Origin: a virus
Lineage: Duplodnaviria > Caudoviricetes
IMG/VR virus record: IMGVR_UViG_3300042691_019112
Coordinates: 1,197 to 65,196 of that record
DNA: 64,000 nucleotides
Direction: 5' to 3' (one strand)
This document shows, piece after piece, positions 2-21,721 of the stretch. A program made the translations under genes and the position numbers. Within the stretch, counting starts at the first letter, position 1, and each line of letters begins with the position of its first letter. The notes beneath the pieces were generated by a model. The model worked only from the letters and a program-made list of their open reading frames with translations. It did not search any database and was not told the origin of the DNA.

Positions 2-85
2 CATCGGCAGGTTGCGGAAGCTATACGAGGTATCTTCAATGCTAATTTTCCTGTTATCGCTAAAGCCATGAACCATGAAGGTTAA
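2..85 (+). CDS. 3' end of a gene, possibly FAD-dependent thymidylate synthase (ThyX-like C-terminus)
   Basis: Reads HRQVAEAIRGIFNANFPVIAKAMNHEG*, resembling the EH..IA....F...FP.I..A end of phage ThyX; only 27 codons visible. Confidence 0.35.
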   Translation, partial: HRQVAEAIRGIFNANFPVIAKAMNHEG

Positions 86-245
86 CATATCAAGATGTAA
101 ATCGGGGCTGAAATATGCCCCGAAATTGAATAAGGGGTGGGAGTGGGTTCGGTATTTTCTTCGCTATCATCGATTTACAAATCAAATTCACCCCAAATAC
201 CGCAAACTAAGACCGATTGAACTAAACGAGGGATTACCTTTTTGA
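75..245 (+). CDS. hypothetical protein (56 aa)
   Basis: Hand-translated MKVNISRCK...NEGLPF*; fills the gap between neighbouring genes. Confidence 0.45.
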   Translation: MKVNISRCKSGLKYAPKLNKGWEWVRYFLRYHRFTNQIHPKYRKLRPIELNEGLPF

Positions 246-246
246 G

Positions 247-429
247 ATGGAAAACAAACCCTCTGCTGACGCAAAACCCGTGTTACCTGCCGTGCATTAT
301 GCACCATACGGTGAATGGGGTGGAGAACGTGTTAATTGCAATAGGTATTTTACTACTGATGTAGCACATACAGGAAATAAAGATAAAGTGACTTGTAAAT
401 TCTGTCAGCGTCTTTTGCATGGCAGGTAA
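247..429 (+). CDS. small putative zinc-binding protein, cassette-encoded (copy 1)
   Basis: H...C...VTCxxC motif; 47 of 48 codons from LPAV onward encode the same residue as in 14822..15037. Confidence 0.8.
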   Translation: MENKPSADAKPVLPAVHYAPYGEWGGERVNCNRYFTTDVAHTGNKDKVTCKFCQRLLHGR

Positions 430-430
430 C
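282..430 (+). mobile_element. integron-like gene cassette A, copy 1
   Basis: Starts GTTACCTGCCGTGCA and ends TGCATGGCAGGTAAC (15-bp inverted repeat, 1 mismatch); second copy has the same boundaries. Confidence 0.7.
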
Positions 431-546
431 GTTTGGGGCTTTGTGCAGGTGGGGATTTTAGCACCCAGGCTGAATTGAAAAACAAATGCTCAACCTACTA
501 CAAATGTTTCATAGTAGTACGTCTGCCCCACTTGCACAAAACCGAT

Positions 547-553
<7 letters not shown>
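423..553 (+). repeat. attC-like recombination site
   Basis: GGTAAC (to 430), arm TTTGTGCAGGTGGGG (440-454), arm CCCCACTTGCACAAA (526-540), then GTTAGGC (547-553). Confidence 0.7.
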
Positions 554-1156
<603 letters not shown>

Positions 1157-7499: not shown

Positions 7500-7562
7500 A
7501 TGCCCTTTGGGTACTGATACCTACCTTACTGCTTATCGTTCAACCTTGCGCCTAATTTGCGC

Positions 7563-8350: not shown

Positions 8351-8544
8351 CCGTTAACAACACCATAGCAGACCTGCTGTCTGAAATAGATAGTAGGCTT
8401 GCAGATATGGCACACGCCCTGCAAAGGGAGCTAGGTAAGGACGTAGATGTTCGAGATGGGTATCTCGTTCACCTTATCACCTTGGAGCAGAATAAGCTCA
8501 ACACCACACGCCACAAAATCAAAACCATACTTAAAGGAGAATAA
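8347..8544 (+). CDS. hypothetical protein
   Basis: 65-aa ORF in a coupled series. Confidence 0.55.
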   Translation: MTVNNTIADLLSEIDSRLADMAHALQRELGKDVDVRDGYLVHLITLEQNKLNTTRHKIKTILKGE

Positions 8545-8545
8545 C

Positions 8546-8974
8546 ATGGAAAAGGTAACAATCACACTGGAGTTAACCCACGACGAGGTTAAATATGTTC
8601 TTGATAGCTTAAAGAAGCGAAAGGAGGTAGTCGAAAGAATAGAGTTGAGGCAAAAGCAATCACAGTCTGAACCTCGAAAAGATAAGCATGGTAACACTAT
8701 GATACCGTGTAATTCAGATTTAATATGGCCGGAAAACGCCCTATTTGATTTGAACGGCAACGCGGTATTGCCTGACCCACAACCATTTCAACTTGAGTAC
8801 GGGAAAAGGTATAAAGCGAGCAACGGAAAAATATATGGCCCTTTGGTAGAAAACAAAGGAGCAAACAGCAAAACTCATCCTTTCAAAGCTAATCATTTAA
8901 CATGGAAGCCTGATGGCATATGGGGTGTTGGCACACAAACAGATGAACTCGACCTAATCGAAGAAGTAATATGA
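8546..8974 (+). CDS. protein with a C-terminal LE.GK.Y...DLIEE repeated domain
   Basis: Start MEKVT; domain shared with the genes at 10519, 16021 and 17677. Confidence 0.7.
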   Translation: MEKVTITLELTHDEVKYVLDSLKKRKEVVERIELRQKQSQSEPRKDKHGNTMIPCNSDLIWPENALFDLNGNAVLPDPQPFQLEYGKRYKASNGKIYGPLVENKGANSKTHPFKANHLTWKPDGIWGVGTQTDELDLIEEVI

Positions 8975-9240
8975 ACCGCTTTCTACTCACCCTGCTGACC
9001 ATCTTCGCACCTTACAAGGTGACGAACATTCATAACGAAAGCACGGCCAAGACCTTCCTCGAAGGGGAGTGCTTCGGCTATCGCCTATGCTTCCGCTCTC
9101 CCTCGTTATACGGAGTGCGAATGTGGATAGTACGAAAGTGCTGCCACCTCATGTTCCCACAAGCTACCATCAAGTCTATCCATTGGCCTGACGACAAGAT
9201 GTGCTACATACTCACCGACAAATACTACCACCTGCCATGA
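8971..9240 (+). CDS. hypothetical protein
   Basis: ATGA-coupled at both ends. Confidence 0.55.
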   Translation: MNRFLLTLLTIFAPYKVTNIHNESTAKTFLEGECFGYRLCFRSPSLYGVRMWIVRKCCHLMFPQATIKSIHWPDDKMCYILTDKYYHLP

Positions 9241-9782
9241 GGTTAGTAAACAGATGCGGCCTACATATCCGCTACGAAACGCTGCAAGACCCCTCTGGGC
9301 TTACATGGCTTTTCACCTACTACACCGACACCACCTCTGATTCTGGACGATGGAATGCCCGCGTAACTTACCCATGTGGCAAGGCTAAGAAGTACACCAC
9401 CGTGCCTTATGTCAATATCAAGCTAATGATATGGTCGATTACTAAGGTGGGATGCGTTAGCTACAAAGAGGTTAACAACTACTGTATCCTCGATGCCGTG
9501 GTAAGGAATACCGAGAAGCTGACGTATAAGGAGTTTCGTGCGCAGTATGAGTGCAGTCCTACCTTTGCCCTGAATGTCTTTAGAGAGATAGAGAGATGCA
9601 GGAAGAGGGAAGGAATAACGGGGGAGATGCCGGAATCTTTAGGTTCCACGTTATCCCTATTAACGATACGCATAAACACATTATGTCGCGCAACTGCGAA
9701 TGCCAACCGCACGTCGTTATTGATGAAGAGAATGCGTTTATCTGCATCAGCCACCACTCATGGGATGGGAGAGAGGCGTTAG
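9237..9782 (+). CDS. hypothetical protein
   Basis: Start MRLVN coupled to the previous stop. Confidence 0.5.
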   Translation: MRLVNRCGLHIRYETLQDPSGLTWLFTYYTDTTSDSGRWNARVTYPCGKAKKYTTVPYVNIKLMIWSITKVGCVSYKEVNNYCILDAVVRNTEKLTYKEFRAQYECSPTFALNVFREIERCRKREGITGEMPESLGSTLSLLTIRINTLCRATANANRTSLLMKRMRLSASATTHGMGERR

Positions 9783-9850
9783 AGGAGCTGTCGGTATGTT
9801 GTAGCGGTATAACCTTCGACTACGAAGGATGGATAACAATTGAATACTAA
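9596..9850 (+). CDS. small His/Cys-rich protein overlapping the previous ORF
   Basis: HVIPIND..H....C.C.P...H.S.DGRE motif. Confidence 0.6.
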   Translation: MQEEGRNNGGDAGIFRFHVIPINDTHKHIMSRNCECQPHVVIDEENAFICISHHSWDGREALEELSVCCSGITFDYEGWITIEY

Positions 9851-9866
9851 ACCCAAAACCAATAAT

Positions 9867-10052
9867 ATGAATACATTGAATGACACTTTGAGAGTGTTGG
9901 ACGCTATGTCTAAGGATGTGGCAAGTGCTTTACAAGGGAATCAGGCTGCCCGCCTTCGCTTTGGTAAGCATGAGAGAGAGTTAAGGGCTTTGTGTAAGGA
10001 GGTACACAAGCAGTCTAAGTTAATCGCCTCCGTAAAAAAGAAAACCAAGTAA
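9867..10052 (+). CDS. histone H1-like (Hc1-type) nucleoid protein
   Basis: GNQAARLR....ELRALCKEVHKQS resembles the GNKAA..RARK...EL....KE.RK.S motif. Confidence 0.55.
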   Translation: MNTLNDTLRVLDAMSKDVASALQGNQAARLRFGKHERELRALCKEVHKQSKLIASVKKKTK

Positions 10053-10065
10053 ACCCAATAAGACA

Positions 10066-10269
10066 ATGGAAAAGTTAGCAGCCCTTTTGGGCATGGCCAC
10101 CGCGTTAGGTGGTAATCAATCAGAAGTTGTAGCCCAAGACCCAATGCTTTATGAGGCAAGCAAGGCTTCGTTCCACGGAGTGCAGTTTTCGGGCGACCCA
10201 CGGAAAGCCGCACGTAACCACCACCGCAGAATGAAGGCATCCGGCAGACATAACTGGAGGAAGGCGTAA
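10066..10269 (+). CDS. hypothetical protein
   Basis: 67-aa ORF with basic C-terminus, coupled to the next gene. Confidence 0.55.
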   Translation: MEKLAALLGMATALGGNQSEVVAQDPMLYEASKASFHGVQFSGDPRKAARNHHRRMKASGRHNWRKA

Positions 10270-10517
10270 TGAAACTGGAAAACCTTGAGAGGGCGAAAGA
10301 GCTAGTTCTTACCCTTGTTGTTTGTGAGAATGTGCTGAAAGATGCCAAAGACAAAACCCTTGAATTAAAAAAAATGGAGCTTACATACGACAACGGTATT
10401 GATATTGTGCAGAATACGGTAAGAAACAAGCGCATTTTGAGCAAACTGCACGAGCTGTATGTGATTGAACTGGAGCACGAAATCGCTGAACTTAAAGCTG
10501 AACTTGAAACGCTGTAA
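10269..10517 (+). CDS. hypothetical protein
   Basis: MKLENLERAKEL...ELETL, coupled. Confidence 0.65.
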   Translation: MKLENLERAKELVLTLVVCENVLKDAKDKTLELKKMELTYDNGIDIVQNTVRNKRILSKLHELYVIELEHEIAELKAELETL

Positions 10518-10518
10518 C

Positions 10519-10881
10519 ATGGAAAAGAATTTCACAGAACTGCACGTAGGCGGAGTGTATTTGAGGAGGGATGGGAGGGTTGATTGGATTGATATTAAAG
10601 ACGATGGAAATCGTGATTATCCTTTCAAGCCTAAAGGAGGCTACACGTATTCACCAAACGGAATTTTTATAAAAAGTCAAGAACACGATTACGACCTCGT
10701 TCAACACCTATGCGACATCGAAGACCTCAAACGCCTTCCCGAAATCATGGCCGAAAATGAACGGCTGAAAGCGGAGATGCAGAAAAATGCAGCAGATGGG
10801 CAATCCTACATGGAAGAATGTCATAATGAAATTATCAAGCTGAAAGCGGAAATAGAGCAACTTAAAGCAGAAAAGCCATGA
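10519..10881 (+). CDS. protein with an N-terminal repeated domain and a coiled coil
   Basis: LHVGGVYLRRDG...YPF...DYDLVQ. Confidence 0.7.
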   Translation: MEKNFTELHVGGVYLRRDGRVDWIDIKDDGNRDYPFKPKGGYTYSPNGIFIKSQEHDYDLVQHLCDIEDLKRLPEIMAENERLKAEMQKNAADGQSYMEECHNEIIKLKAEIEQLKAEKP

Positions 10882-11030
10882 AATACGCTATTGCTTTTGT
10901 TCTATGTTACCTCTTTTTCGCTTTTATTTTATGGGAAGTAAACCCATCTAATTGGAGCGAACAAGCAAGAGTGGGTTGCGTAATGTCTTTTTTTACGCTC
11001 ATGCTTTTAATTGAACTTAAACCAAAATAA
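10878..11030 (+). CDS. small membrane protein (50 aa)
   Basis: Hand-translated MKYAIAFVLCYLFFAFILWEVNPSNWS...; coupled at both ends. Confidence 0.55.
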   Translation: MKYAIAFVLCYLFFAFILWEVNPSNWSEQARVGCVMSFFTLMLLIELKPK

Positions 11031-11281
11031 TGAACCGCCACGGCTCACAAGCGCACAAGCTACGTCACCTCATAACAAGGGGTGGCGTAGTATCCGCAGC
11101 ATCAGCCAAAGCCCTCGGAATACCCAACATCTGGGCGAGGCTCAAAGAAATCAAAGACACCGACATAGCCGTAGCTGTCGTCACCCAACACGACCGCAAA
11201 CCCATCAAGCTGTACGCAGCACCCAAAACCTTCGACAAACTAAACCTAACCCACAAGCCCTATGTTACAAGAAGTCGTTAG
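11030..11281 (+). CDS. putative winged-helix protein
   Basis: SQ..KLRHL..GGVVS...A..LGI....ARL.EIK pattern. Confidence 0.55.
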   Translation: MNRHGSQAHKLRHLITRGGVVSAASAKALGIPNIWARLKEIKDTDIAVAVVTQHDRKPIKLYAAPKTFDKLNLTHKPYVTRSR

Positions 11282-11298
11282 CATAGGCAACTCAAGCG

Positions 11299-11330
11299 AA
11301 AGCCTCCTACTTAGGGGGCTTTTTCTTTTT
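11299..11330. terminator. terminator between convergent operons
   Basis: AAAGCCTCCT-actt-AGGGGGCTTT plus T run. Confidence 0.65.
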
Positions 11331-11747
11331 GAACTTCTCCACAAAGCCGTTATACTTCGTAGCCTTCTCCCCATAAGGAATCTTATTGCTGTCAACACCG
11401 TTACGCAGCACTCCCGTATCCCCCATAGCCAACTGCTTCAAGCTATGTAACCCCTCCATCTTCTCCGACTTAACACCAAGCCTGATAACCTCAACATTAT
11501 GCGTATGGTTGATAGTCTGGTCTATCCTCTCCGACACAAGCAAGTTAACCCACGCCTGACCTCGCGTATCAATAAACAAATCCTTCTCCTCTAAGTCGTC
11601 CAAACAAACCCTGATAAGTATCTTATCAAAGGGAGCTACGCGCCTATTACCATACCCCACAAACTTGCGCACCACGCCATTACGGACGTACTGCTGCCTG
11701 TGCTGCCCATCCCTAAAGGCTTCCTGTCTCTCCTGCTCCTTGTCCAT
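11307..11747 (-). CDS. hypothetical protein, distantly like the 15413..15775 product
   Basis: VGYGN..V, IRVCLDDL, G..WVNL.V.E pattern. Confidence 0.55.
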   Translation of the reverse strand: MDKEQERQEAFRDGQHRQQYVRNGVVRKFVGYGNRRVAPFDKILIRVCLDDLEEKDLFIDTRGQAWVNLLVSERIDQTINHTHNVEVIRLGVKSEKMEGLHSLKQLAMGDTGVLRNGVDSNKIPYGEKATKYNGFVEKFKKKKPPK

Positions 11748-12189
11748 ATACTTCGTCTTGTTTACGCATGAATCTATTCTGCTTATACGTCCGCTTGAAC
11801 TTCTGGCCAAACTTCGTCTTAGCTGTAATAAAGTTTAAGTCCGCTTGAGCCTGTCCATCTATGAGTGTGAGCTTATCCAAAGTCACAACCTTGTTGATGT
11901 TATGAGCCAACACATACGTTTGTAGTATCTTCTGGCCATCCTTCTCCGCGTAGTAGCTTTCCAACTCCCCATATATAGTCACCATATCCCCTTCTTTTAT
12001 CGTCGTCTGTAACGCCTCTGCAACCACGTTGTAGGCTTTTACATTGAAGTCAACAGGGATATAGTCCAACCCTCCCTTACCATCCTTCACCGCCTTTAGC
12101 TGTCTTATAGTCCCCCAAAACATGAGGCCATATCGTATCTCTTTGGTACGCTTCGTTATCAGCGCACCAGTTATTACTAAGACATTCAT
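11713..12189 (-). CDS. ssb: single-stranded DNA-binding protein (OB fold)
   Basis: MNVLVITG.L...FNVKAY..VAE......KEGDMVTIYGEL....EKDGQK. Confidence 0.7.
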   Translation of the reverse strand: MNVLVITGALITKRTKEIRYGLMFWGTIRQLKAVKDGKGGLDYIPVDFNVKAYNVVAEALQTTIKEGDMVTIYGELESYYAEKDGQKILQTYVLAHNINKVVTLDKLTLIDGQAQADLNFITAKTKFGQKFKRTYKQNRFMRKQDEVYGQGAGETGSL

Positions 12190-12629
12190 TTGGCCTTCTT
12201 TAGTTTCTTGCGTGGAATGCCTTGTATCAGGTCGAGAACCAACCCTATATCGGTAGCCTTGCGAGGCATATAAAAGCAAGAGCCTGAGCGATGGGTGAGT
12301 AGGTAGTGCTTGAACAACCGGATACGGATAGACGCATCTTTGGTGAGCATACCTTTGGTTTCGATGTAGTGGCTGCCTATACGAAAGTCGTAGGTGTAGC
12401 TGATGCCATCGACGACGTGTTTAGATCCGCGCAAGGTCTTGCCAAACTCAAAGGACTGGAGTAACACTACTGTTTCGGGTTTCACCTCCACGGGAAGCCC
12501 TCGCAGGAGAGCTTGCTTGTAGAAGTCCGCTTCGAGGCCGCTATCGAACTCTATGCCGTTGTATATGACTTTCTTGGCGTTGGAGTGACTTTTGCCTTTG
12601 GCTTTGAATGTTTTGCGTTTAAATGGCAT
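12186..12629 (-). CDS. PD-(D/E)XK endonuclease (DUF1064 or resolvase-like)
   Basis: GIEFDSGLEA, YTYDF, IETKG. Confidence 0.75.
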   Translation of the reverse strand: MPFKRKTFKAKGKSHSNAKKVIYNGIEFDSGLEADFYKQALLRGLPVEVKPETVVLLQSFEFGKTLRGSKHVVDGISYTYDFRIGSHYIETKGMLTKDASIRIRLFKHYLLTHRSGSCFYMPRKATDIGLVLDLIQGIPRKKLKKAK

Positions 12630-12656
12630 ACCTTTGTCGTGTAAACAAAGATAGCG

Positions 12657-12920
12657 ATGGCAATTTTATTCGTTGACAATACAACTTTTGTGACTGTTGT
12701 AGAAGATAGCACCACCCCTGATACCCCTATTTACTCTTACCCTAAGAATGGCGTGACTATGAAGGTCGCCAACACTACCGATGGGTATATCCAGATTGTG
12801 AGTAACGACAACCGGATATGGGGTTTCAGAAGGAGTGAGCTTGCGGTGTCGCAGCAGGGAGCGGACTTGCTTGCTTGCGTTAATGGCTTGATGACGCTAA
12901 GCTGTACTTCGCAGGCATAA
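12657..12920 (+). CDS. hypothetical protein, isolated on the opposite strand
   Basis: 87-aa ORF with TACCTTTG promoter-like element at 12629. Confidence 0.6.
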   Translation: MAILFVDNTTFVTVVEDSTTPDTPIYSYPKNGVTMKVANTTDGYIQIVSNDNRIWGFRRSELAVSQQGADLLACVNGLMTLSCTSQA

Positions 12921-13001
12921 AAAGCCAAAGGGCTGACATTTCTGCCAACCCTTGGACGACGCAGGAGCCACAAGCACCCGCGACAAAGGTATGCTGTGCG
13001 C

Positions 13002-13319
13002 TTATAGCTTGGAGATTATTTGCTTATAAAGTTGTGGGTTTCCCACTTCCATATCTTCCACTCTTTTGAGAGAGTTTATAACTGTTGAATGGTCGCAGCC
13101 AAGGATTGAAGCGGTGATACTTTTGCTTTTTGTTCGATTAAAGAGGAAGCACCTTAGCACGTGCTTTGCTTGTGATATGGGTGTATGCCTCGACTTGCTT
13201 AATACCTCTTCGGGTGTTAGATGGGAGAAATGAGGTATAGAAAGCACCTTCCATATTGCTTGGTTGAGTATGCTTTCGTTTGATTCTACGTTTAATCCAG
13301 GGTAGCTGTAAGGTGTCAT
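13002..13319 (-). CDS. DnaA C-terminal-like HTH protein
   Basis: SKSRHTPISQAKHV...LGCDHSTVINSLKRVE. Confidence 0.75.
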   Translation of the reverse strand: MTPYSYPGLNVESNESILNQAIWKVLSIPHFSHLTPEEVLSKSRHTPISQAKHVLRCFLFNRTKSKSITASILGCDHSTVINSLKRVEDMEVGNPQLYKQIISKL

Positions 13320-13699
13320 GGCCTAATGTCTAAGTTATCGTGAATGCGTGTGACGCTTTTTATGTAGTCACGAGGTATCCACCTACTTGAGGTGACATGG
13401 TAAGAATCATTGAACAAGTAGCATTCGTGTACCGTTTCCTGCCCGTTATGTAAACAGGTTACGCGGTACTGGTTCTTGGGGTTGAATCTTGCGTAAAAGT
13501 GCCGACATTGCTCATTTTCGAGGGTAAAACCGTGGCATTTCTGCACGTGTTCAAAGAACTGCTTTCGCTCATTTTCGGTCATGGCGTGGTAATGCTCATC
13601 TGAAAAGCTATCGAAGCAAGCAGAACGGGCTATCGGGCGAGGTGGTATAACCGCTTCGGCCAACCACATTAGGTCGAAAAAGTCTATTTTGAAGCTCAT
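13316..13699 (-). CDS. hypothetical protein
   Basis: 127-aa ORF, ATGA-coupled. Confidence 0.7.
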   Translation of the reverse strand: MSFKIDFFDLMWLAEAVIPPRPIARSACFDSFSDEHYHAMTENERKQFFEHVQKCHGFTLENEQCRHFYARFNPKNQYRVTCLHNGQETVHECYLFNDSYHVTSSRWIPRDYIKSVTRIHDNLDIRP

Positions 13700-14304
13700 A
13701 ACTCTATTGTTTTACATTCCGTAACAGGGTAAAAAATCGGCATGATAACCAAAGTATAAACCCCGCACTTGAAAATAGTCTGTCTTGTATCTACAGGCAA
13801 ATACACAAGGGTTGCTTTTTCGCCTACAAACTCCTCAAGGTCTTTAAGTTTAAGAAAGTACTTTGAATTAAAAAACAGGCCATTGTATTTAACATTAAAC
13901 AACTTAGGTACTTTTTTTTCCGTTCGCTTTTCAAAACTTCCATCGCCTTTACAAATAGGACATTTGTCTTCTATTCCGTAAATTCTTTGCGTTTTAGTTG
14001 AAAAATACTCATATTCAACTTGGCCGAAGCCGTCGCATTCATCGCACTCTTCATCTATAACCTCGTCAACAAGTGGAATACTATCCAACTTTAACCAGTC
14101 GATATTTGTAGGCTCATTGCAGCTTGTTTCGAGAATGATGGAAGCGTGACTTTCCTTTCCCTCTAGAGCTTGGATGTTAACATCTTCGTTTTTAGCGGCT
14201 ATTAAAACATAGGCATCGGTGGCGTATGTGTAACCGTTGGCCGTTAGCGGTGTTTCAAAAAAGCATACACCGCAAAATGATTGAAAAAACTCTTGTTGTG
14301 TCAT
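13696..14304 (-). CDS. protein with a CxxCxGxG zinc finger
   Basis: CDECDGFG and CPICKGDG; YATD motif near the N-terminus. Confidence 0.7.
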   Translation of the reverse strand: MTQQEFFQSFCGVCFFETPLTANGYTYATDAYVLIAAKNEDVNIQALEGKESHASIILETSCNEPTNIDWLKLDSIPLVDEVIDEECDECDGFGQVEYEYFSTKTQRIYGIEDKCPICKGDGSFEKRTEKKVPKLFNVKYNGLFFNSKYFLKLKDLEEFVGEKATLVYLPVDTRQTIFKCGVYTLVIMPIFYPVTECKTIEL

Positions 14305-14314
14305 TGGTATTGGA

Positions 14315-14803
14315 TTATAACGTAAACTCCTCTTGGTTGTGTTTTAGTATCGCTGCCCATGCGTCTAAGCCTTCGCGTTTAAATGCCCAGCCCAGCTTCT
14401 TGAGTAGGCTTCCGGAGCTTTCTACAAGATCTTTAAGAATCTTTAGTTCATGTTTGTAGAAGGGAACCTTGGTTCTGATGAGGTCGGACGCTGCTTCGTT
14501 AACTGCATTCAGGTAGATACACATCATTACATAATACTTGGTATCGTATGTAAATAGCGGCTCGGATTGTTCGACAAGCTGCTCGGATATTTCAAGTTGT
14601 AAATCGGCCACAAGGTTAAAATTCATCTCGGGGTGGAATTTTTCCACCTCGTATTTGTAAGCCCTCATAGCCTTGAATACCTTATCGGCTAAGGGGTGCT
14701 GTCTGTGATGCCGAGCGTCTTCCGCGTACACCATGCAGGAATAGGCCACAAGGTGAAGCGTCGCGTAACGCGGAATGATTATAGGAGTGATTGTGTCTTG
14801 CAT
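14315..14803 (-). CDS. hypothetical protein
   Basis: 162-aa ORF in operon. Confidence 0.65.
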   Translation of the reverse strand: MQDTITPIIIPRYATLHLVAYSCMVYAEDARHHRQHPLADKVFKAMRAYKYEVEKFHPEMNFNLVADLQLEISEQLVEQSEPLFTYDTKYYVMMCIYLNAVNEAASDLIRTKVPFYKHELKILKDLVESSGSLLKKLGWAFKREGLDAWAAILKHNQEEFTL

Positions 14804-14820
14804 TGGATTGTGTGTTTGGG

Positions 14821-14969
14821 GTTACCTGCCATGCAAAAGACGCTGACAAAACTTACACGTTACCTTGTCCTTATTGCCAGTATGTGCTACATCGGTGGCG
14901 AAATATCTATTGCAATTAACACGTTCACCGCCCCATTCGCCATAAGGCGCGTAATGCACGGCAGGTAAC
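14821..14969 (-). mobile_element. integron-like gene cassette A, copy 2
   Basis: 149 bp with the same GTT...AAC ends as 282..430. Confidence 0.7.
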
Positions 14970-15037
14970 ACTGTATTGCCGTCAATAGCGCTTTGGATAG
15001 ATTGGCCGTTTTCTTGGTTTGTTAATTTGTCTGTCAT
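14822..15037 (-). CDS. small putative zinc-binding protein (copy 2)
   Basis: Same core as 247..429 with a different N-terminus. Confidence 0.8.
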   Translation of the reverse strand: MTDKLTNQENGQSIQSAIDGNTVLPAVHYAPYGEWGGERVNCNRYFATDVAHTGNKDKVTCKFCQRLLHGR

Positions 15038-15094
15038 CGTATTGTGTTTAGTTGTGTGTTTTGGGGTTGGCGGTCAGGCTAAAAGACACCCCTG

Positions 15095-15331
15095 TTAATC
15101 TTCATATTTGGTAATTTGAACATCTAAAAATTCATCATCACTTTCGAGAACATCCATAAAATTTAAGTAGCCTTCAATAACTGAATATTGTTCTCTTTCT
15201 CTTCTTTCCTGGACATCTTCAAAATTCAAATCTTTGATTTTCTCGTAATCGCTTTCGTCCATTTCAACGCTTTGTTCAAAGTGCATTACTTGTTTACACT
15301 TAATGGTAACTGATACTTTTTTTTCTGACAT
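15095..15331 (-). CDS. hypothetical acidic protein
   Basis: 78-aa AT-rich ORF followed by GCCTGACCGCCAAC (cassette-like 3' end). Confidence 0.65.
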   Translation of the reverse strand: MSEKKVSVTIKCKQVMHFEQSVEMDESDYEKIKDLNFEDVQERREREQYSVIEGYLNFMDVLESDDEFLDVQITKYED

Positions 15332-15412
15332 TTTTTTAGGGTTTGCTTTTACGCCCCAAACCCCGCATTTGTTTCAGTGCGGGGCGGTTTAATCCCATCG
15401 ATTTCGATGGAA

Positions 15413-15775
15413 TTAGAAGGGCAGGTCGTCGTCTTGCGGTGCGCCTACCTGCTCCTGTATCCTACCATCGGGCTTCGCATTCAAGCTGCCGCGTCGTTGG
15501 TAGCCCTGCTGCTGTGGCTGCCCCTCGCCAGTGGGCTTCCACGTGTCAACAGTGATAGACACATCGTTGCCGTATTGGTCAGGCTCTTGCAAGTCGTTGA
15601 TAACGATATTCAGGATTTGCTTTCCCGACTGTAACGTCTTGATAAACGCCTCTACGTCCGCCTCTGCGATACGCGAAAGGTTCAAGCCTACCTTGCGGAA
15701 CATGATAGCTCCGTCATTTTTTCTGCGTACAATCTTGCCGTTGCCGACATAGATTTTCTTCTGCTGTTCGCTCAT
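15413..15775 (-). CDS. SSB-like protein with acidic DDLPF tail
   Basis: KIYVGNGK...DQYGNDVSITVDTWKP...QDDDLPF. Confidence 0.65.
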   Translation of the reverse strand: MSEQQKKIYVGNGKIVRRKNDGAIMFRKVGLNLSRIAEADVEAFIKTLQSGKQILNIVINDLQEPDQYGNDVSITVDTWKPTGEGQPQQQGYQRRGSLNAKPDGRIQEQVGAPQDDDLPF

Positions 15776-15778
15776 GGG

Positions 15779-16030
15779 TTATTGGTATTTGGTTTTGATG
15801 TAGTCAATGAATTGGGTTCTCGCCTCTGTTATGAACTGCGATAGTTCGCGTAGGCATCTTACGTGTTCGTCGGGGTTCTCTCGTAGGTCGTATGGCATGA
15901 GGTACTTACCGCCATCGAATGTAAAGATAAGGGTTGAGCCATCTTGGGTTGCCTTGAATACGTTAACCACGCGCTCGTCTTCTACCCACTCCATGCGGTA
16001 CACGAATTGGCTCTTGGGGATTACTTGCAT
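15779..16030 (-). CDS. hypothetical protein
   Basis: Likely start MQVIP overlapping the upstream stop. Confidence 0.55.
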   Translation of the reverse strand: MQVIPKSQFVYRMEWVEDERVVNVFKATQDGSTLIFTFDGGKYLMPYDLRENPDEHVRCLRELSQFITEARTQFIDYIKTKYQ

Positions 16031-16287
16031 ACTTCTTCGATTAAATCCCACTCGTCTGTTCGCCAAGAATAAAGCTCACCTAAACAGGTGTAATTAATAT
16101 GATTATCCAAGTCTTTGTACTTGTAAGAATCGCCATCTTTCGCAACTATCTCGCCCGAAATCTTACCATCCCGACGACGGTATCGCTTACCCGCCTCAAT
16201 GAGGATTTTTTTCTCGCCTGTTAGCCTGTTATACAGGTCAACAAGCTGTTGCGCTTGGTCTTTATCGACCGAAAAGTTTAGTATCAT
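16021..16287 (-). CDS. protein with the repeated domain
   Basis: IEAGKRYRRRDG...WDLIEEV. Confidence 0.7.
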   Translation of the reverse strand: MILNFSVDKDQAQQLVDLYNRLTGEKKILIEAGKRYRRRDGKISGEIVAKDGDSYKYKDLDNHINYTCLGELYSWRTDEWDLIEEVCK

Positions 16288-16366
16288 ATAGCTTAGTTTG
16301 CTTTCACAAACCTAACAACCTCATTTGTATCCATTTGCTAAACTATGTTAATCGTTAACTTTGGTC

Positions 16367-16567
16367 ATGTTTACCAAACTATGGAAGCGGTACACCGCAC
16401 CAACACCCCTCTTTTGGCAGCGCGTTATCATCGTCGCTAAAGCTGTTGTAGGCATCATCGTAGCTAACGAAATGCTATCAGATAACACCTTCTCAACGCA
16501 GGAACTCATGGCGATAGCTGGCGTTGTCATCGTCGAACTCTCTCAATTTACAACACCCAAACAATGA
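16367..16567 (+). CDS. putative holin
   Basis: APTP.FW motif, two hydrophobic segments, SQFT end; directly upstream of the amidase. Confidence 0.7.
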   Translation: MFTKLWKRYTAPTPLFWQRVIIVAKAVVGIIVANEMLSDNTFSTQELMAIAGVVIVELSQFTTPKQ

Positions 16568-17124
16568 AAAGAACCGTTTACCTTTCAGCAGGTCACTCCA
16601 ATGAGATAGGCCGTGACCGTGGTGCAGCAGCCACACATTCGGGCGTAATGTATATAGAAGGCAATGAAGCTGTACGTATGCGTGACCGCATATCCGCAAG
16701 CCTACGACAAGCAGGAATAACCGTCGTCACCGACGAAAACAGAAACATCTTAGCAGAAACAATCCGCTTCTTTCGCAACAAGACCACCTCTCGATGTATC
16801 GTCGTTGACATACACTTCAATGCAGCATCACCCACCGCTAACGGTACAGAAGTACTTGTGCCGGAAGTGCCTACCACCAAGGAAAGAGGTATCGCCACCG
16901 ACATCTGCAATGGTATTGTAGCTATCGGATTCAGGAATAGAGGCGTAAAGACGGAGTTGCAATCGCACCACGGAAGGCTCGGATGGATGAGGCTTACTGG
17001 AGAGAATGTGCTTATCGAAACGTGCTTTATCTCGAATAAAGACGATATGGATAGATATGTTAGGCACTTCAATCAGGTATGCGACGCTATCAGTTCGGCC
17101 TTGATTAAACACGCGACCTCATGA
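16564..17124 (+). CDS. N-acetylmuramoyl-L-alanine amidase (Amidase_3) endolysin
   Basis: LSAGH, E, DIHFNA, GTEV, VLIETCFISN. Confidence 0.9.
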   Translation: MKRTVYLSAGHSNEIGRDRGAAATHSGVMYIEGNEAVRMRDRISASLRQAGITVVTDENRNILAETIRFFRNKTTSRCIVVDIHFNAASPTANGTEVLVPEVPTTKERGIATDICNGIVAIGFRNRGVKTELQSHHGRLGWMRLTGENVLIETCFISNKDDMDRYVRHFNQVCDAISSALIKHATS

Positions 17125-17645
17125 ATGAAAGTCCGTTCCGATGGCAGGTTAGTACCTTCGTCCTCGCGGTCGTGGCAGGAGTTCTCTTGGTAGGGCTTCT
17201 GCATCAATGCGGACAGAAGCAGGATGCCGTTATCGTTTACGATAGGTCGCACGCTATGAAAGCCGATAGCCTTATGCAGGAAGCGGATAGCGTTAAGAAG
17301 GTCGTGGATAGCCTTATGTCACGTGTTACACCCACGCCTAAGATTGTGGATCGGTGGAAGGAGGTGAAGAGTATTGTTACCTCCGAGGTGTGTAGCGTCG
17401 TGTATGAGCCTGTGGTGGCTTTTGGCGATAGCTTGGTTGCGGAGATAGTGAAGAGGGATAGCGTTGTTGATGGATTGATAGCGGAGAGGGGCTTGCTTCG
17501 AGGTGCTGTTGACCAGATGCGGTTGCAGAGGAGTGTGGATAGTACGGCTCTTGATAGCTTGGGTAGGGATACAAGGCGGCTTAGGCGGTGGAATAAAGTG
17601 TGGAAGGCTGTTGCTGTTGTGGGGCTGCTTGTGCCTGTGCCATAA
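17121..17645 (+). CDS. putative spanin or lysis accessory protein
   Basis: N-terminal membrane helix with Cys, coiled coil, C-terminal hydrophobic end; follows the endolysin. Confidence 0.55.
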   Translation: MNESPFRWQVSTFVLAVVAGVLLVGLLHQCGQKQDAVIVYDRSHAMKADSLMQEADSVKKVVDSLMSRVTPTPKIVDRWKEVKSIVTSEVCSVVYEPVVAFGDSLVAEIVKRDSVVDGLIAERGLLRGAVDQMRLQRSVDSTALDSLGRDTRRLRRWNKVWKAVAVVGLLVPVP

Positions 17646-17673
17646 AAAAAGCCCAGCGGTTAACTGGGCTTTG
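17644..17673. terminator. terminator between convergent genes
   Basis: AAAAAAAGCCCAG-cggttaa-CTGGGCTTT. Confidence 0.7.
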
Positions 17674-17676
17674 GCG

Positions 17677-18354
17677 TTATTCTACCTCTTTGATTAGGTC
17701 AAATGGGTGGTTTGAATGGCCTTTTTTATCCCATTGTCCGTTTTCTTTCCATGTAAAATATCCACATCTAAATGGGTGGGTTTTTATATGTTGGCCATCA
17801 TTTTCAACTAATGGCCCATGTATTACACCACTCCTCGATTTATACTTCTTTCCATACTCAAGCCTAAAGGGTTTAGGTTTGGGTTCGATATACTCTTCGA
17901 TTAGGTCGTAATTGTGAGGCTTATATTCAAAAAGAAAAGTGCCATCAGATGCCCACGTCTTGGACCCGTCTGTAAATGGGTAATTTTCCGAATCGCTTTG
18001 TATTAACGGCTTGGTTATCTCACCATCGCGCCTTTTGTAGCATTTTCCCACCTCAAGCCTAAAGGGTTTAGGCTCTTCTTCTTTAGTCGCTTCGGCTTGC
18101 GGCTCGGCAGGAACCTTTATTGGGTCAGGGTCTTTCAGGAAGGCTAAGTAGAAAGTAAGGCACTCTCTCTTGATGTCAAAAGCATCATTCAGAATGTCAT
18201 GCTTTGCAGCAAACTCGCACACCTCTTTAATACCCACCTTGTTAGGCTTTTCGTCTATGGCGATAGCCATGTCGTAGAGGAATGCGGATAGCTGTGGCGT
18301 TAGCTGGAATCCTGCGAGGCGTTGAGCCATCAGGAAAAGGTCGTAGTTGGTCAT
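17677..18354 (-). CDS. protein with two tandem copies of the repeated domain
   Basis: Start MTNYD; PKPFRLE(V/Y)GK...DLI(E/K)E twice. Confidence 0.75.
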   Translation of the reverse strand: MTNYDLFLMAQRLAGFQLTPQLSAFLYDMAIAIDEKPNKVGIKEVCEFAAKHDILNDAFDIKRECLTFYLAFLKDPDPIKVPAEPQAEATKEEEPKPFRLEVGKCYKRRDGEITKPLIQSDSENYPFTDGSKTWASDGTFLFEYKPHNYDLIEEYIEPKPKPFRLEYGKKYKSRSGVIHGPLVENDGQHIKTHPFRCGYFTWKENGQWDKKGHSNHPFDLIKEVE

Positions 18355-18428
18355 AACTGTTTTGCTTTTACCACCAAACCCCTCCGAAGAGGGGCAAGGC
18401 AGTCGCAAAATCAGAAGCCACACGGCTG

Positions 18429-18523
18429 TGGAGAGGACAGGACTCGAACCTGTATGTAGTGAGGTAGTGAGCAGATATGATGTCAACAACACTTACTATG
18501 CGTAGCCATTCCGCCACCTCTCC
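18429..18523 (-). tRNA. tRNA-like RNA or pseudo-tRNA with a non-canonical anticodon region
   Basis: Acceptor stem GGAGAGG/CCTCTCC, TGGCGGAATGG D region, T arm ACAGG-TTCGAGT-CCTGT; no clear anticodon arm. Confidence 0.6.
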
Positions 18524-18642
18524 ATGTGCCGTCTTTCCGGCTGTCAGAAGCTATGCTTCGCATTTCACACACTTAACTCGCCGATTCGCATCGGGGACAA
18601 ACACATCGCAAATATACAAGCGCATTATCGCACACATTCGCT

Positions 18643-18888
18643 TTAACCTATTTTAACAGCCTCATGCTCCAAAGAGTAGGCATAAGACCGTGCCAACACC
18701 TTGGCATCTATATCCTTGCCTCCCTCAATAGCCTCAATAAGGCTCACAACCATCTGCCTGTAATCTACCTCCGTAAGAAGCGACTTGTCAATAGCTACGA
18801 AGTTGTTGCTAACGCTGCCGATAACAGTATCATTCAGCGTACCTTCCACAACCATAGGCTGCTTCAAGTACAGTTTCTTACCTTTCAT
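18643..18888 (-). CDS. hypothetical protein
   Basis: 81-aa ORF overlapping the upstream stop. Confidence 0.55.
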   Translation of the reverse strand: MKGKKLYLKQPMVVEGTLNDTVIGSVSNNFVAIDKSLLTEVDYRQMVVSLIEAIEGGKDIDAKVLARSYAYSLEHEAVKIG

Positions 18889-19336
18889 CGCCTAACCTCC
18901 TATGATTACACGAGAAACCCGAATGATTGTAGATGATAGGCGACACCGCGATATTGCCCACGTTGTAAGCATCTTCCACAAACCTCTCCAAGTCGAAAGG
19001 GAACGCAGCACCTTTCCCCTTCCATCCATCCTTGCTCATGAGAAACAGATACTCTTGGTGCGCCCATGCAAACTGAACAAAAGCGTTCATCTCCTCTTGT
19101 AAGGCAGCGTTGAAATCGCCCTTCTTAGGCGTGTTCATAACACGAATGCCATACAGACTACCTTGCGCCCCCTTGCGTGGTATATCAGGGCTTTTATATC
19201 CGTTGATACCGATAAACAACTGGGTGCTTAACCCACGATACAGATTACCTGACCTGTATGTAGGAAAGACGAATACCTCATTAGGTTGTAGCCCCCGAAT
19301 AACATCAGGGGCTATAATCAAACACTTATTGTCCAT
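18878..19336 (-). CDS. divergent A1S_2505-like phage protein
   Basis: I..LQPNEVFVF...G.QG..YGI...F..FA..H....F pattern. Confidence 0.55.
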   Translation of the reverse strand: MDNKCLIIAPDVIRGLQPNEVFVFPTYRSGNLYRGLSTQLFIGINGYKSPDIPRKGAQGSLYGIRVMNTPKKGDFNAALQEEMNAFVQFAWAHQEYLFLMSKDGWKGKGAAFPFDLERFVEDAYNVGNIAVSPIIYNHSGFSCNHRRLGDER

Positions 19337-20138
19337 ACTCTTTGATGGTATTTATGAAGGCATCCGCTTCCTTGGCGGTGATACCTGCTTTGATAAGCTC
19401 CAGCTTGGCAGGGGTTTCTTCACCGTACACCTTCTTCATCATGCCTGTCTTCCAGTACGACAACAGCGTTGCTCTCTGTTCTGCCGACATCATAGGCTCT
19501 CCAGCAGATGCAGGAGGTGGTGGTGTAACTGGCGTAAGTTGAATACCCGTAACAGGTGCAGGTGTTGCAGCTTGCTTAGGTGCAGGAGGAGTGGTTTTAG
19601 GCTTGCGTTGATAGCCACCTTCGTGCGGCTCTGGAGTGCGGCTATCAGGGTCTTTGCTATCTCCCTCTGGGTCTTTGGTAGGTATCTTGAACGCAGTAAG
19701 AAGCAGGTACTTGTCTGCGATAGAGGCGGTCTTATTGTAAACCTTATCGCCTGTATCTGCTGCCTCTCCCATGAGTGGTCCTACCGTGAACCTACTACCA
19801 TCTTCCGCAAAGAAGTCGGCCATATACAAGCCCAGCACGCGCATCTTAGCAGTACCGCTCTTGGTAACGCCTTCCATCTCGTCGGACATCACAAGCCTGA
19901 ATCGACAGATGATACCATTCTCGGCTAACAAAGGCTGAATGTGGTTATACACATCGTCGATACCTCGGTAGTTAAAGCCTTGGTCTTTGTTTTTCTGGTC
20001 TTTGCCGATAGCGGATATACCCTTCATGACTTTAATCATGGCAGGGATAATCATGCCTGGCTTTCCATCTGCAAGGTAGCCGCAATCTAACGGGTCTTTT
20101 GGTTGCAGGTGTGCGTAATTCTGAAACGTGGTTTCCAT
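19326..20138 (-). CDS. ERF-family single-strand annealing protein
   Basis: IGKDQKN..QGFNYRGIDDV, GEAADTGDK..NK..S.A.KY.L...F.IPT. Confidence 0.85.
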   Translation of the reverse strand: METTFQNYAHLQPKDPLDCGYLADGKPGMIIPAMIKVMKGISAIGKDQKNKDQGFNYRGIDDVYNHIQPLLAENGIICRFRLVMSDEMEGVTKSGTAKMRVLGLYMADFFAEDGSRFTVGPLMGEAADTGDKVYNKTASIADKYLLLTAFKIPTKDPEGDSKDPDSRTPEPHEGGYQRKPKTTPPAPKQAATPAPVTGIQLTPVTPPPPASAGEPMMSAEQRATLLSYWKTGMMKKVYGEETPAKLELIKAGITAKEADAFINTIKEYGQ

Positions 20139-21421: not shown

Positions 21422-21435
21422 TTGCGTGTTTAGGG

Positions 21436-21721
21436 GTTAGGCGTAATTTTAAATATCCGTATTGCCAATTCCTAACAAATCGACAAGGTCAAACATTTCA
21501 CTACTACCCCACTCATTGACAATATTAAACTGCCATTCATTATCATAAAGCTGCTCTTGCATTTCAGCATCTTTTACTTTTACTCCCCACCAATTACCAT
21601 CTGATGCCAATGTTAGAATATCGCTATTCTTTTGAATAGTCAGTATCTTATCACGAAACGACATTTTATTAAATCGTTCTGCCATTTGACGATACTGCTC
21701 CAAAGAAAAACTACGCCTAAC
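21436..21721 (-). mobile_element. integron-like gene cassette C
   Basis: On the minus strand starts GTTAGGCGTAGTTTT and ends AAAATTACGCCTAAC; preceded by CTTGCCAAACCGAT like the attC arm at 531-546. Confidence 0.7.

What the first reader, a model, noticed from the sequence alone, without database searches (positions are those of the whole stretch)
14821..15037. The same 149-bp cassette occurs twice, with exact ends and different N-termini
Seen: 282-430 (+) and 14821-14969 (-) are both 149 bp and similarity fades just outside GTT and AAC. By hand alignment they differ at 21 positions, 20 of them third-codon positions, giving one amino-acid change (T/A). The first 18 and last 28 nt are identical. 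The N-termini (MENKPSADAKP and MTDKLTNQENGQSIQSAIDGNT) come from unrelated flanks. Inference: two independent captures of a mobile unit under strong purifying selection, encoding a real zinc-binding microprotein of unknown function. This is the best internal evidence that the cassette ends are real breakpoints.
Basis: seen in the sequence. Interest (0 to 1): 0.75.

Follow-up and report, generated by a model that had tools for sequence, protein, structure and literature searches.

The report
Twice-present gene cassette in phage
A tiny, strongly conserved zinc-finger-like gene occurs twice in this phage as a 149-base unit with matching inverted ends, and those ends are the hallmark of a widespread integron-like system by which phages appear to swap small accessory genes.

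Summary
282-430 (+) and 14821-14969 (-) are 149 nt each and differ at 21 sites, 20 of them third codon positions, with one T/A residue change. dS is 1.34 and dN/dS 0.0065.

The sharp fade of similarity proves nothing by itself. At that dS, neutral DNA would be only about 37% identical.

The ends are still real. Each copy is bracketed by a 15-bp inverted repeat: GTTA+N6, a fixed G.T at pair 11, then TAAC. This repeat covaries in homologues from other viral contigs (84 of 84 cells paired; 24-36 of 84 when slid).

The same bracket flanks unrelated genes in the window (547-1156, 21436-21721). It was found 279 times in 120 other viral loci, against 10 in shuffles. There, cassettes alternate with hairpin spacers, mostly 50-124 nt.

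A Xer/IntI-like tyrosine recombinase sits just downstream of such arrays in 17 of 18 testable loci. This phage has none.

Best reading: two old paralogues of an HCCC zinc-binding microprotein, each a cassette of an integron-like phage system. Copy A lies in an array; copy B stands alone without a spacer. "Independent capture" cannot be decided.

Earlier notes of this scan describe similar arrays on other DNA. I found no paper on this variant.

The parts
247..429 (+). Copy A gene: 60-aa protein with an 11-aa variable tail and a 49-aa conserved HCCC core
   Evidence: ORF and translation. 21 homologues of 48-87 aa. Alignments A2 and A3.
282..430 (+). Cassette A as bounded by the inverted repeat. 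5' arm 282-296, 3' arm 416-430. The stop codon TAA is part of the terminal TAAC.
   Evidence: Stem of 15 pairs, 0 of 200 shuffles reach its score. Covariation table.
272..281 (+). Remnant of the spacer 3' box (CAAAACC..T) just upstream of GTT, here read as the end of the N-terminal tail
   Evidence: Two mismatches to the box at 537-550. The same box lies before other 5' arms and in the consensus of 94 spacers.
431..546 (+). 116-nt hairpin spacer between cassette A and the next cassette. Stem arms 440-454 and 526-540.
   Evidence: Fold of -40.5 kcal/mol. Homologous spacers in L006 and L010. Contigs at depth 48-68 share the stem but not the loop.
547..1156 (+). Neighbouring cassette with the same bracket (arms 547-561 and 1142-1156). 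It encloses the 3'-5' exonuclease ORF 601..1143.
   Evidence: Scans. Pfam PF16473 and phrog_2259. In run X6 the homology ends at 1156 and a spacer-like sequence follows.
14822..15037 (-). Copy B gene: 71-aa protein with a 22-aa variable tail and the same 49-aa core (one residue differs)
14821..14969 (-). Cassette B. 5' arm 14955-14969, 3' arm 14821-14835. No hairpin spacer follows it.
14808..14821 (-). Motif CCCCAAACACACAA abutting the AAC of cassette B. Near copies lie at 15052-15065 (-) and 21422-21435 (-), the latter abutting the cassette at 21436-21721.
   Evidence: 3 matches against 0.62 expected.
21436..21721 (-). Third kind of cassette with the same bracket. Its ORF starts upstream of GTT and reads through the 5' arm.

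Best explanation
The 149-nt block is a gene cassette of an integron-like, phage-borne gene-exchange system, and this phage carries two old paralogous copies of it.

The cargo is a 49-residue domain with conserved His-x13-Cys-x18-Cys-x2-Cys. It is most likely a small zinc-binding accessory protein; its target is unknown.

Each cassette begins with T|GTTA and ends with TAAC|G. Its first and last 15 nt are complementary to each other, with a fixed G.T at pair 11. In arrays, cassettes alternate with hairpin spacers, mostly 50-124 nt long, that start right after AAC and end right before GTT.

This layout is what is left when a circular cassette is inserted by a crossover at G|TT. Joined in the circle, the two arms plus the spacer would form one long folded site. 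That is the logic of integron attC sites, but here the R stem has 15 bp instead of 7.

The enzyme would be a 263-265-aa Xer/IntI-like tyrosine recombinase. Related phages encode it directly downstream of their arrays. This phage has none, so its cassettes would be moved only in trans, or are fossils.

Shown: the bracket, its covariation, its recurrence, the arrays, and the linkage to the recombinase.

Inferred: the crossover point, folding as single-stranded DNA, present-day mobility, zinc binding, and how copy B lost or never had its spacer.
For: 1. Purifying selection: dS 1.34, dN 0.0087.

2. The terminal stem is present in 9 of 13 homologue loci, with 0 of 200 shuffles reaching the score in each of the 9. 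It is absent in L007, L012, L013 and L014.

3. There are four stem variants, and 8 of 14 pairs changed on both sides. 84 of 84 cells pair, against 24-36 of 84 when the partner is slid. The 3' arm lies in different reading frames or after the stop codon, so it is conserved as nucleic acid and not as codons.

4. The same architecture surrounds unrelated genes in the window: 547-1156 and 21436-21721.

5. In 120 viral loci fished with the box motif, there are 279 elements against 10 in shuffled loci, with 196 distinct 5' arms. The cargo frame is on the sense strand in 265 of 279. Base -1 is T in 267 of 279 and base +1 is G in 212 of 279.

6. Arrays: 96 of 152 consecutive gaps are 50-124 nt. Of the 98 spacers of 40-200 nt that were folded, 96% have an MFE z-score below -2.

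7. Arms pair within a cassette, not across a spacer. Across a spacer the uninterrupted run is 6 bp or fewer in 96 of 98 cases.

8. Gene order is shuffled at these junctions in the window, L006 and L010.

9. Logan contigs of other runs lose homology exactly at 431, 550 and 1156.

10. Recombinase linkage: PF00589 occurs in 2 of 30 array-rich records, and both ORFs start 42-50 nt after the last cassette. Starting from the recombinase, 17 of 18 loci with at least 1,900 nt upstream carry co-oriented elements upstream. None of 26 has one downstream on that strand.

11. The cultured Polaribacter phage P12002L has the bracket at 30952-31120. That lies inside its cluster of DNA-methyltransferase genes. 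Qi et al. 2023 report a CALIN holding two predicted methyltransferase genes in this phage, and one of its two tested sites recombined with IntI1 (PMC9892861; I read the abstract, section 3.4 and passages). I could not see their site coordinates, so I did not confirm that their sites are these.
Against: - No recombination was observed. No laid contig lacks or inverts either copy.
- Copy B and the cassette at 21436-21721 have no hairpin spacer after AAC. A canonical integron cassette would carry one. AAC|C junctions are rare elsewhere (4 of 279).
- This phage has no tyrosine or serine recombinase. Only 1 of 11 near-complete array-bearing records has a tyrosine recombinase.
- The recombinases score below every curated cut-off, including integron integrase (150 bits against 265). 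They lie downstream of the array and co-oriented with it, unlike intI.
- Several features would equally fit a role of the arms in mRNA: the fixed G.T on the sense strand, the stop codon at fixed offsets (13 nt or 1 nt), and start codons in spacer loops (97 of 279 ORFs start upstream of GTT).
- The test of whether a spacer travels with its upstream cassette had too few informative pairs (0 and 4).
- The 120 loci were chosen by a motif taken from this window, so their counts describe that subfamily only.
Confidence: 0.62

Rival explanations
1. The arms are an RNA device. In the transcript, the 5' and 3' arms pair and enclose each cistron, for example as a processing site for a double-strand RNase or as a stability or translation switch. 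The spacers are expression modules that supply a start codon. Cassette shuffling would then be a by-product.
For: - The G.T (G.U) is always on the sense strand of the cargo, in all four window elements and all homologue variants.
- Among other non-Watson-Crick pairs, TG plus GT number 23, against CA plus AC at 11.
- The stop codon ends 13 nt (70 cases) or 1 nt (61 cases) before the element end.
- 82 ORFs start 41-70 nt upstream of GTT, inside the spacer.
Against: - A plain RNA stem gives no reason for GTT/AAC to be invariant at the inner end of the stem in unrelated cassettes.
- It also does not explain a conserved T.T mismatch at pair 10 (62 of 279).
- It does not explain the tight, oriented linkage to a tyrosine recombinase.
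- Spacers fold as well on the antisense strand.
- No RNase III gene is in the phage, though the host's enzyme could serve.
- No Rfam family matches.
Confidence: 0.17
2. This is modular shuffling by ordinary homologous recombination at repeated regulatory hairpins, like the PeSL promoter-terminator cassettes of T4-type phages. No dedicated site-specific enzyme is involved.
For: - The spacers are a repeated, conserved element between variable genes. In two runs they appear at depth 48-68 with different loops.
- A block holding both window cassettes is replaced by 226 other letters between two exact 13-nt direct repeats, at 237-249 and 1176-1188.
- Most array-bearing phages have no recombinase.
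- PeSLs are described in PMC2839356 and PMC4122927. I saw the search-listing abstract start of the first and the abstract and outline of the second.
Against: Homologous exchange in shared spacers does not explain why the two ends of each cassette are complementary to each other with cassette-specific sequence. It also does not explain the recombinase linkage.
Confidence: 0.1
3. This is an ordinary ancient tandem-free duplication. The block ends only where selective constraint ends (the domain start and the stop codon), and the inverted repeat is incidental.
For: - dS is saturated, so sharp ends are expected anyway.
- N-terminal tails vary in all 21 homologues.
- dN between A and B (0.009) is lower than between A and its orthologue L010 (0.054).
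Against: - The inverted repeat covaries and sits in different reading frames in different homologues.
- The same bracket surrounds unrelated genes.
- The first 18 and last 28 nt show no synonymous change, while the interior is saturated.
Confidence: 0.06
4. It is a miniature transposon (MITE-like) with terminal inverted repeats, moved by a transposase.
For: It has terminal inverted repeats of 15 bp and occurs twice, in opposite orientations.
Against: - There is no consistent target-site duplication.
- Arm sequences differ between elements apart from GTTA and pair 11 (196 distinct 5' arms). That fits recognition of a structure, not of transposase binding sites.
- The cargo is always a sense-oriented gene (265 of 279).
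Confidence: 0.03

Closest known systems
Integron gene cassettes and attC sites, including clusters of attC sites lacking an integrase (CALINs) reported in virulent phages (Qi et al. 2023, PMC9892861; abstract, section 3.4 and passages read)
   Same: - Gene-sized, mostly promoterless, co-oriented cassettes are separated by imperfect hairpins that run from ...AAC to GTT....
- The 5' end of each cassette is complementary to the start of its own 3' site.
- The stop codon often lies in TAAC.
- Arrays often lack a recombinase.
- The linked enzyme belongs to the Xer/IntI branch of tyrosine recombinases.
- Polaribacter phage P12002L, one of their CALIN phages, carries the bracket described here.
   Different: - The complementary ends are 15 bp with a fixed G.T at pair 11, not a 7-bp R box.
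- RYYYAAC/GTTRRRY is met by some arms only.
- The recombinase is small (263-265 aa) and scores below the integron-integrase cut-off.
- It lies downstream of the array and co-oriented with it, rather than upstream and divergent.
- About a third of cargo ORFs start inside the preceding hairpin.
- The box motif was not found as an element in 301 Bacteroidota genomes.
- Copy B has no hairpin at all.
PeSL regulatory cassettes of T4-type phages (PMC2839356, PMC4122927; search-listing abstract start of the first, abstract and outline of the second)
   Same: Short repeated stem-loop elements lie between small accessory genes in plastic regions of lytic phages, and gene content is shuffled at them.
   Different: PeSLs are promoter-terminator units thought to act through homologous recombination. 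As far as I read, they have no cassette-specific inverted ends, no invariant GTT/AAC and no linked recombinase.
Solitary integron cassettes inserted outside att sites (attG/SALIN; bioRxiv 10.1101/2022.09.11.507474; search listing and start of abstract only)
   Same: Copy B is a lone cassette away from the array, as a cassette inserted at a secondary site would be.
   Different: By my recall of that work, such insertions keep the cassette's attC. Copy B ends at AAC with no hairpin.

Membership tests
Integron cassette / attC (canonical) | Hairpin site running from an inverse core ending in AAC to a core starting with GTT, placed 3' of the cargo gene | tested here: met
   Copy A: spacer 431-546 between AAC(430) and GTT(547). 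96 of 152 inter-element gaps are 50-124 nt, and 96% of the 98 folded spacers (40-200 nt) fold with z below -2. Not met for copy B, which has no spacer.
Integron cassette / attC (canonical) | Core consensus RYYYAAC / GTTRRRY (recalled consensus; also quoted as G|TTRRRY in PMC9892861 section 3.4) | tested here: inconclusive
   The cassettes at 547-1156 and 21436-21721 read GTTAGGC / GCCTAAC and fit. The zinc-protein cassette reads GTTACCT / AGGTAAC, and two positions fail on each side.
Integron cassette / attC (canonical) | 5' end of the cassette complementary to the start of its own 3' site (a consequence of the G|TT crossover), over about 7 bp | tested here: met
   Complementarity lies within the cassette, not across the spacer. 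It extends 14-15 bp, longer than the canonical box.
Integron cassette / attC (canonical) | Recognised by the attC covariance model (IntegronFinder/HattCI) with extrahelical bases on the bottom strand | not testable with these tools
   No attC model is on hand. Rfam has no matching family.
Integron (complete) | IntI integrase with its specific extra domain, upstream of and divergent from the array, with attI | tested here: not met
   There is no PF00589 in this genome. Array-linked recombinases in related phages score 150 bits against the cut-off of 265 for TIGR02249. They are 263-265 aa and lie downstream and co-oriented.
CALIN (two or more attC sites without an integrase) | Two or more attC-type sites, with no integrase nearby | tested here: inconclusive
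   The window has one clear spacer (431-546) plus a degenerate one upstream of 247, and four bracketed cassettes. There is no recombinase. Whether the spacers count as attC was not testable.
Small HCCC zinc-binding protein family (unnamed) | Conserved core HYAPxGEWG..C..TTDV..VTCKxC, 46-128 aa, standing alone | tested here: met
   21 hits in the 90%-identity clusters. 34 representatives in 1.84 billion proteins. H17, C31, C50 and C53 are conserved. No Pfam, PHROG, PDB or Foldseek match.
MITE / insertion sequence | Conserved terminal repeats bound by a transposase, plus a target-site duplication | tested here: not met
   No consistent duplication. 196 different 5' arms.
Invertible DNA segment (inverton) | Both orientations of the segment found between its inverted repeats | tested here: not met
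   The cargo is on the sense strand in 265 of 279 elements. All 9 stem-bearing zinc-protein loci are in frame with an upstream start. No strand-changing joint appears at the copies.

The most novel reading that the evidence does not exclude
Tailed phages, probably of Bacteroidota given one MAG hit and the Polaribacter phage, share a cassette-exchange system of their own that is distinct from bacterial integrons. A small Xer/IntI-like recombinase sits at the downstream end of the array. The sites have a 15-bp cassette-specific stem carrying a fixed G.T mark one helical turn from the GTT/AAC crossover. The hairpin loops supply start codons to start-less cargo. Lytic phages without the enzyme, like this one, would receive and lose cassettes in trans during co-infection. 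The twice-present zinc-protein cassette would be a direct trace of that traffic.
Probability: 0.45. Interest if true: 0.85.

Novelty: new variant of a known kind. Interest (0 to 1): 0.68.

Why it matters
Phage accessory genes (anti-defence, host take-over, DNA modification) turn over very fast, and the mechanism is mostly put down to illegitimate or homologous recombination.

A site-specific, integron-like cassette system carried by phages themselves would give a defined mechanism for that turnover. It would also give a sequence signature (T|GTTA..G..  ..T..TAAC|G plus a hairpin spacer) for finding mobile accessory genes in viromes, and a recombinase family to test.

For this finding, it turns a curious internal repeat into a bounded, portable gene whose product is conserved at 48 of 49 residues across saturated synonymous divergence. 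That makes the product a good candidate for functional study.

Tried and rejected
**Protein function**
- No Pfam or PHROG hit at E<=10.
- A profile search of PDB sequences gave nothing better than E 0.56.
- The ESM Atlas gave only unnamed viral clusters.
- Two AlphaFold models had pLDDT 63.2 and 69.9. The first gave 5 Foldseek matches against PDB, all at E of 7.5 or worse; the second gave none at E<=10.
- The function stays open.

**Related isolated phages**
- megablast of window 1-20000, tblastn of copy B and blastn of 400-620 against 50,697 phage records found no match.

**Synteny test for an empty site at copy B**
- The two neighbouring proteins gave no match in three related viral records.
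- They gave none in viral contigs either.
- So no genome with the neighbours but without copy B was found.

**Does the spacer travel with the upstream cassette?**
- There were 0 and 4 informative pairs, too few to decide.

**Sequencing runs**
- No RNA holder was listed, so nothing can be said on expression.
- The laid runs are Logan contigs only. Parts without cover are not evidence.

**Other rejected leads**
- Rfam: no family matched at the gathering threshold on the whole window or at E<=1 on 1-2000.
- The hit of the box motif at 63230-63243 lies inside a large structural gene and is chance.
- The 8-mer CCCCAAAC abutting both copies in opposite orientation is not significant by count (4 matches against 2.03 expected; 16 of 100 shuffles reach 4).
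- The antisense ORF 283..420 is not conserved in the other stem variants, judged by reading the sequences.
- An attC-like orientation test by strand stability was inconclusive.
- Supplementary tables of PMC9892861 (attC coordinates and sequences) are closed. I could not confirm that their P12002L sites are the spacers I describe.

Full report
**What is there**

The window is bases 1197-65196 of a 65,196-bp virus record with direct terminal repeats. ORF 247..429 (+) encodes 60 aa and ORF 14822..15037 (-) encodes 71 aa.

Their last 49 residues differ once (Thr/Ala). At the DNA level the ungapped identity block is 280-430 against 14971-14821. It has 21 differences, 20 of them at third codon positions. 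The record holds only these two copies.

**How much the sharp ends say**

Nei-Gojobori counts are S 32.0, Sd 20, N 115.0, Nd 1. This gives dS 1.34, dN 0.0087 and dN/dS 0.0065. At that dS, neutral DNA is expected to be about 37% identical, which is close to unrelated sequence. The flanks show 16 of 40 and 11 of 40 matches.

So the fading of similarity between the two copies cannot show breakpoints on its own. It would look the same after an ordinary old duplication. All pairwise synonymous distances among copy A, copy B and the orthologue L010 are saturated. The order of events therefore cannot be read from them.

**The protein**

- A search of 5.8 billion clustered proteins gave 21 relatives of 48-87 aa.
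- A profile search of 1.84 billion representatives gave 34.
- All share the core (V/I)HYAPxGEWG..VxC..Y.TTDV.H....VTCKxC. N-terminal tails vary from none to 40 or more residues.
- C50 and C53 are invariant. H17 and C31 are nearly so.
- No Pfam, PHROG, PDB-sequence or Foldseek match was found.
- The models are of middling confidence (pLDDT 63 and 70).
- A zinc site of His plus three Cys is a reasonable inference and nothing more.

**The ends are an inverted repeat that covaries**

The first 15 nt of the unit pair with the last 15 nt: ten Watson-Crick pairs, a G.T at pair 11, then four more pairs.

The best helix between the two ends was tested in 13 loci. In 9 it is this one, and 0 of 200 shuffles reach its score. 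The 9 are window A and B, L009, L010, L003-L005, L006 and L011. In L007, L012, L013 and L014, which hold more distant relatives, no such helix exists.

The nine loci give four different stem sequences:

- 8 of 14 pairs changed on both sides.
- All 84 cells pair, against 24-36 of 84 when the 3' arm is slid by 1-3 nt.
- Arms of different variants cross-pair at only 8-11 of 14 positions, except the near-identical L003/L006 pair (13-14 of 14).

The 3' arm holds the stop codon in one frame in two variants. It overlaps a TGA in another frame in a third variant, and lies 8 nt after the stop in the fourth. The 5' arm also sits 8 nt nearer the His codon in the window's variant. The pairing is therefore conserved as nucleic acid and not as codons. 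That also explains why the ends of the window copies carry no synonymous change.

**The bracket is generic**

I confirmed that one and a third:

- 547-1156 (+) encloses a 3'-5' exonuclease gene.
- 21436-21721 (-) encloses another ORF.
- Both have GTTA+N6, G.T at pair 11 and three or four further pairs.

Further examples lie beside the zinc-protein gene in L006 and L010.

Between cassettes lie hairpin spacers that begin right after AAC and end right before GTT. They are at window 431-546, L006 828-943, and two in L010. Their ends are conserved, and the 3' end reads ..GCACAAAACCG.T|GTTA.

The last codons of the N-terminal tails of copies A and B are remnants of that 3' box. This is why a faint similarity runs about 13 nt past GTT.

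Gene order differs between phages at exactly these junctions:

| Locus | Order |
|---|---|
| Window | thyX-like gene, zinc cassette, spacer, exonuclease cassette |
| L006 | another cassette, spacer, zinc cassette |
| L010 | zinc cassette, spacer, cassette X, spacer, a further cassette |

**Wider sampling**

Of 126 motif hits, 83 have a partner arm at 13 of 14 pairs or better within 3.5 kb.

A strict scan of these 1.01 Mb gave the following:

- 279 elements, against 10 in shuffled loci
- 196 distinct 5' arms
- median length 452 nt
- cargo frame on the sense strand in 265 of 279
- T before GTT in 267 of 279
- G after AAC in 212 of 279
- stop codon ending 13 nt (70 cases) or 1 nt (61 cases) before the end

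Of 152 consecutive pairs, 96 are 50-124 nt apart. Of the 98 spacers of 40-200 nt that were folded, 96% fold with z below -2. Across a spacer the uninterrupted run of pairs is 6 bp or fewer in 96 of 98 cases, so the complementarity belongs to each cassette.

In 97 of 279 elements the ORF starts upstream of GTT. In 82 of those it starts 41-70 nt upstream, inside the spacer. Copies A and B do the same.

These loci were chosen with a motif from this window. The numbers therefore describe that subfamily, not all phages.

**Population evidence**

Logan contigs of four runs were laid on window 1-20000.

- Contigs in two runs replace 256-1178 (tail, zinc cassette, spacer and exonuclease cassette) with 226 other letters. 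The replaced block lies between two exact 13-nt direct repeats at 237-249 and 1176-1188.
- Contigs at depth 48-68 share the spacer stem but not its loop.
- Loose ends fall exactly at 431 (another cassette ending ..ATAAC before the spacer), at 550 (other arms after GTTA) and at 1156 (the exonuclease cassette followed by a spacer-like start).
- No contig lacking or inverting either zinc cassette was seen.

**Mechanism**

The layout has cassette-specific complementary ends, invariant GTT/AAC next to an unpaired region, and then a long hairpin. That is what a crossover at G|TT between a folded site on a circular cassette and a target would leave. It is the logic of integron attC sites.

I first weighed an mRNA-stem reading, because the G.T is always on the sense strand. 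Other non-Watson-Crick pairs lean only mildly that way (23 against 11).

The recombinase linkage moved me. This phage has no PF00589, PF00239 or RNase III gene. Among 30 array-rich viral records, 2 carry a tyrosine recombinase. In both, its ORF starts 42-50 nt after the last cassette, on the same strand.

The enzymes are 263-265 aa and carry PF00589 plus PF13495. Their best matches are XerA/'integron integrase', integron integrase and XerC/D models, all below the curated cut-offs.

Starting instead from the recombinase gave 26 homologous loci, down to about 30% identity:

- Of the 18 with at least 1,900 nt upstream, 17 have co-oriented elements upstream.
- In 11 of those, the nearest element ends 42-82 nt before the gene.
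- None of the 26 has an element downstream on that strand.
- Only one element in all lies on the other strand.

The box motif is not a host feature in the sample searched. It gave 2 hits in 301 Bacteroidota genomes, both in ordinary coding DNA without the architecture.

**Comparison with what is known**

Qi et al. 2023 (PMC9892861; abstract, section 3.4 and passages read) report attC clusters without an integrase in virulent phages. One is Polaribacter phage P12002L, and one of its two tested sites recombined with IntI1.

That phage has the bracket described here at 30952-31120, among its methyltransferase genes, followed by spacer-like hairpins. I could not see their coordinates because the supplements are closed.

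Differences from integrons:

- 15-bp ends instead of 7-bp ends
- a fixed mismatch at pair 11
- a small Xer-like enzyme downstream of the array and co-oriented with it
- start codons supplied by the hairpins
- copy B lacks any hairpin

My searches found no paper on this variant.

Earlier notes of this scan describe similar arrays and a Xer-like recombinase on other DNA. I took that as a lead and tested it here.

**Verdict**

The repeat is real and the gene is real. Its limits are true cassette boundaries, but for reasons the window alone could not show. Whether the two copies were captured separately remains open.

Noticed in passing
window 237-249 and 1176-1188: Exact 13-nt direct repeat (leader plus ATG) flanking the block of zinc cassette, spacer and exonuclease cassette. 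Contigs in runs X2 and X4 join 255 to 1179 with 226 other letters between them, so the whole block is replaced.
   Followed up: partly
window 14808-14821 (-), 15052-15065 (-), 21422-21435 (-), about 1729-1742 (+): The motif CCC(C/T)AAACAC follows directly after an AAC at four places, two of them the ends of spacer-less cassettes. AAC|C junctions are rare in other loci (4 of 279). It could be a secondary target or a common gene leader.
   Followed up: partly
window 505-550 and spacers of L015-L134: Spacer loops often carry an ATG in an A-rich context. In 82 cassettes the ORF starts 41-70 nt upstream of GTT. Before the exonuclease cassette, a short leader frame ends inside the 5' arm.
   Followed up: partly
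window 6597-6633 (+) and 15350-15386 (-): A 37-nt terminator-like G+C-rich hairpin is present twice at 86% complementarity, one copy just upstream of the gene cluster that holds copy B.
   Followed up: no
window 15083-15345: One contig of run X4 skips 263 nt, which removes the 78-aa gene 15095..15331 next to copy B. This is a gene-sized presence/absence variant without the cassette bracket.
   Followed up: no
L002 about 700-1280 (record bases upstream of the window) and window 75-245: A thymidylate-synthase-ThyX-like reading frame ends just before the window's first cassette; the name is recalled from motifs and was not searched. The 56-aa ORF 75..245 lies over a degenerate spacer-like hairpin and is probably not a gene.
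   Followed up: no
L135 (NC_028924) 14622-15197 (+), 39242-39518 (-), 40552-40764 (-): Further bracket-like elements in Polaribacter phage P12002L lie outside its methyltransferase region. The background of chance matches is high in this AT-rich genome (about 37 in shuffles at the loose threshold).
   Followed up: no
window 282-430 versus 14821-14969, interior codons 7-44: 20 of about 23 synonymous sites differ (pS 0.86). Copy A tends to A/T and copy B to G/C at third positions, while 48 of 49 residues are kept. This may be no more than saturation at two-fold sites.
   Followed up: partly
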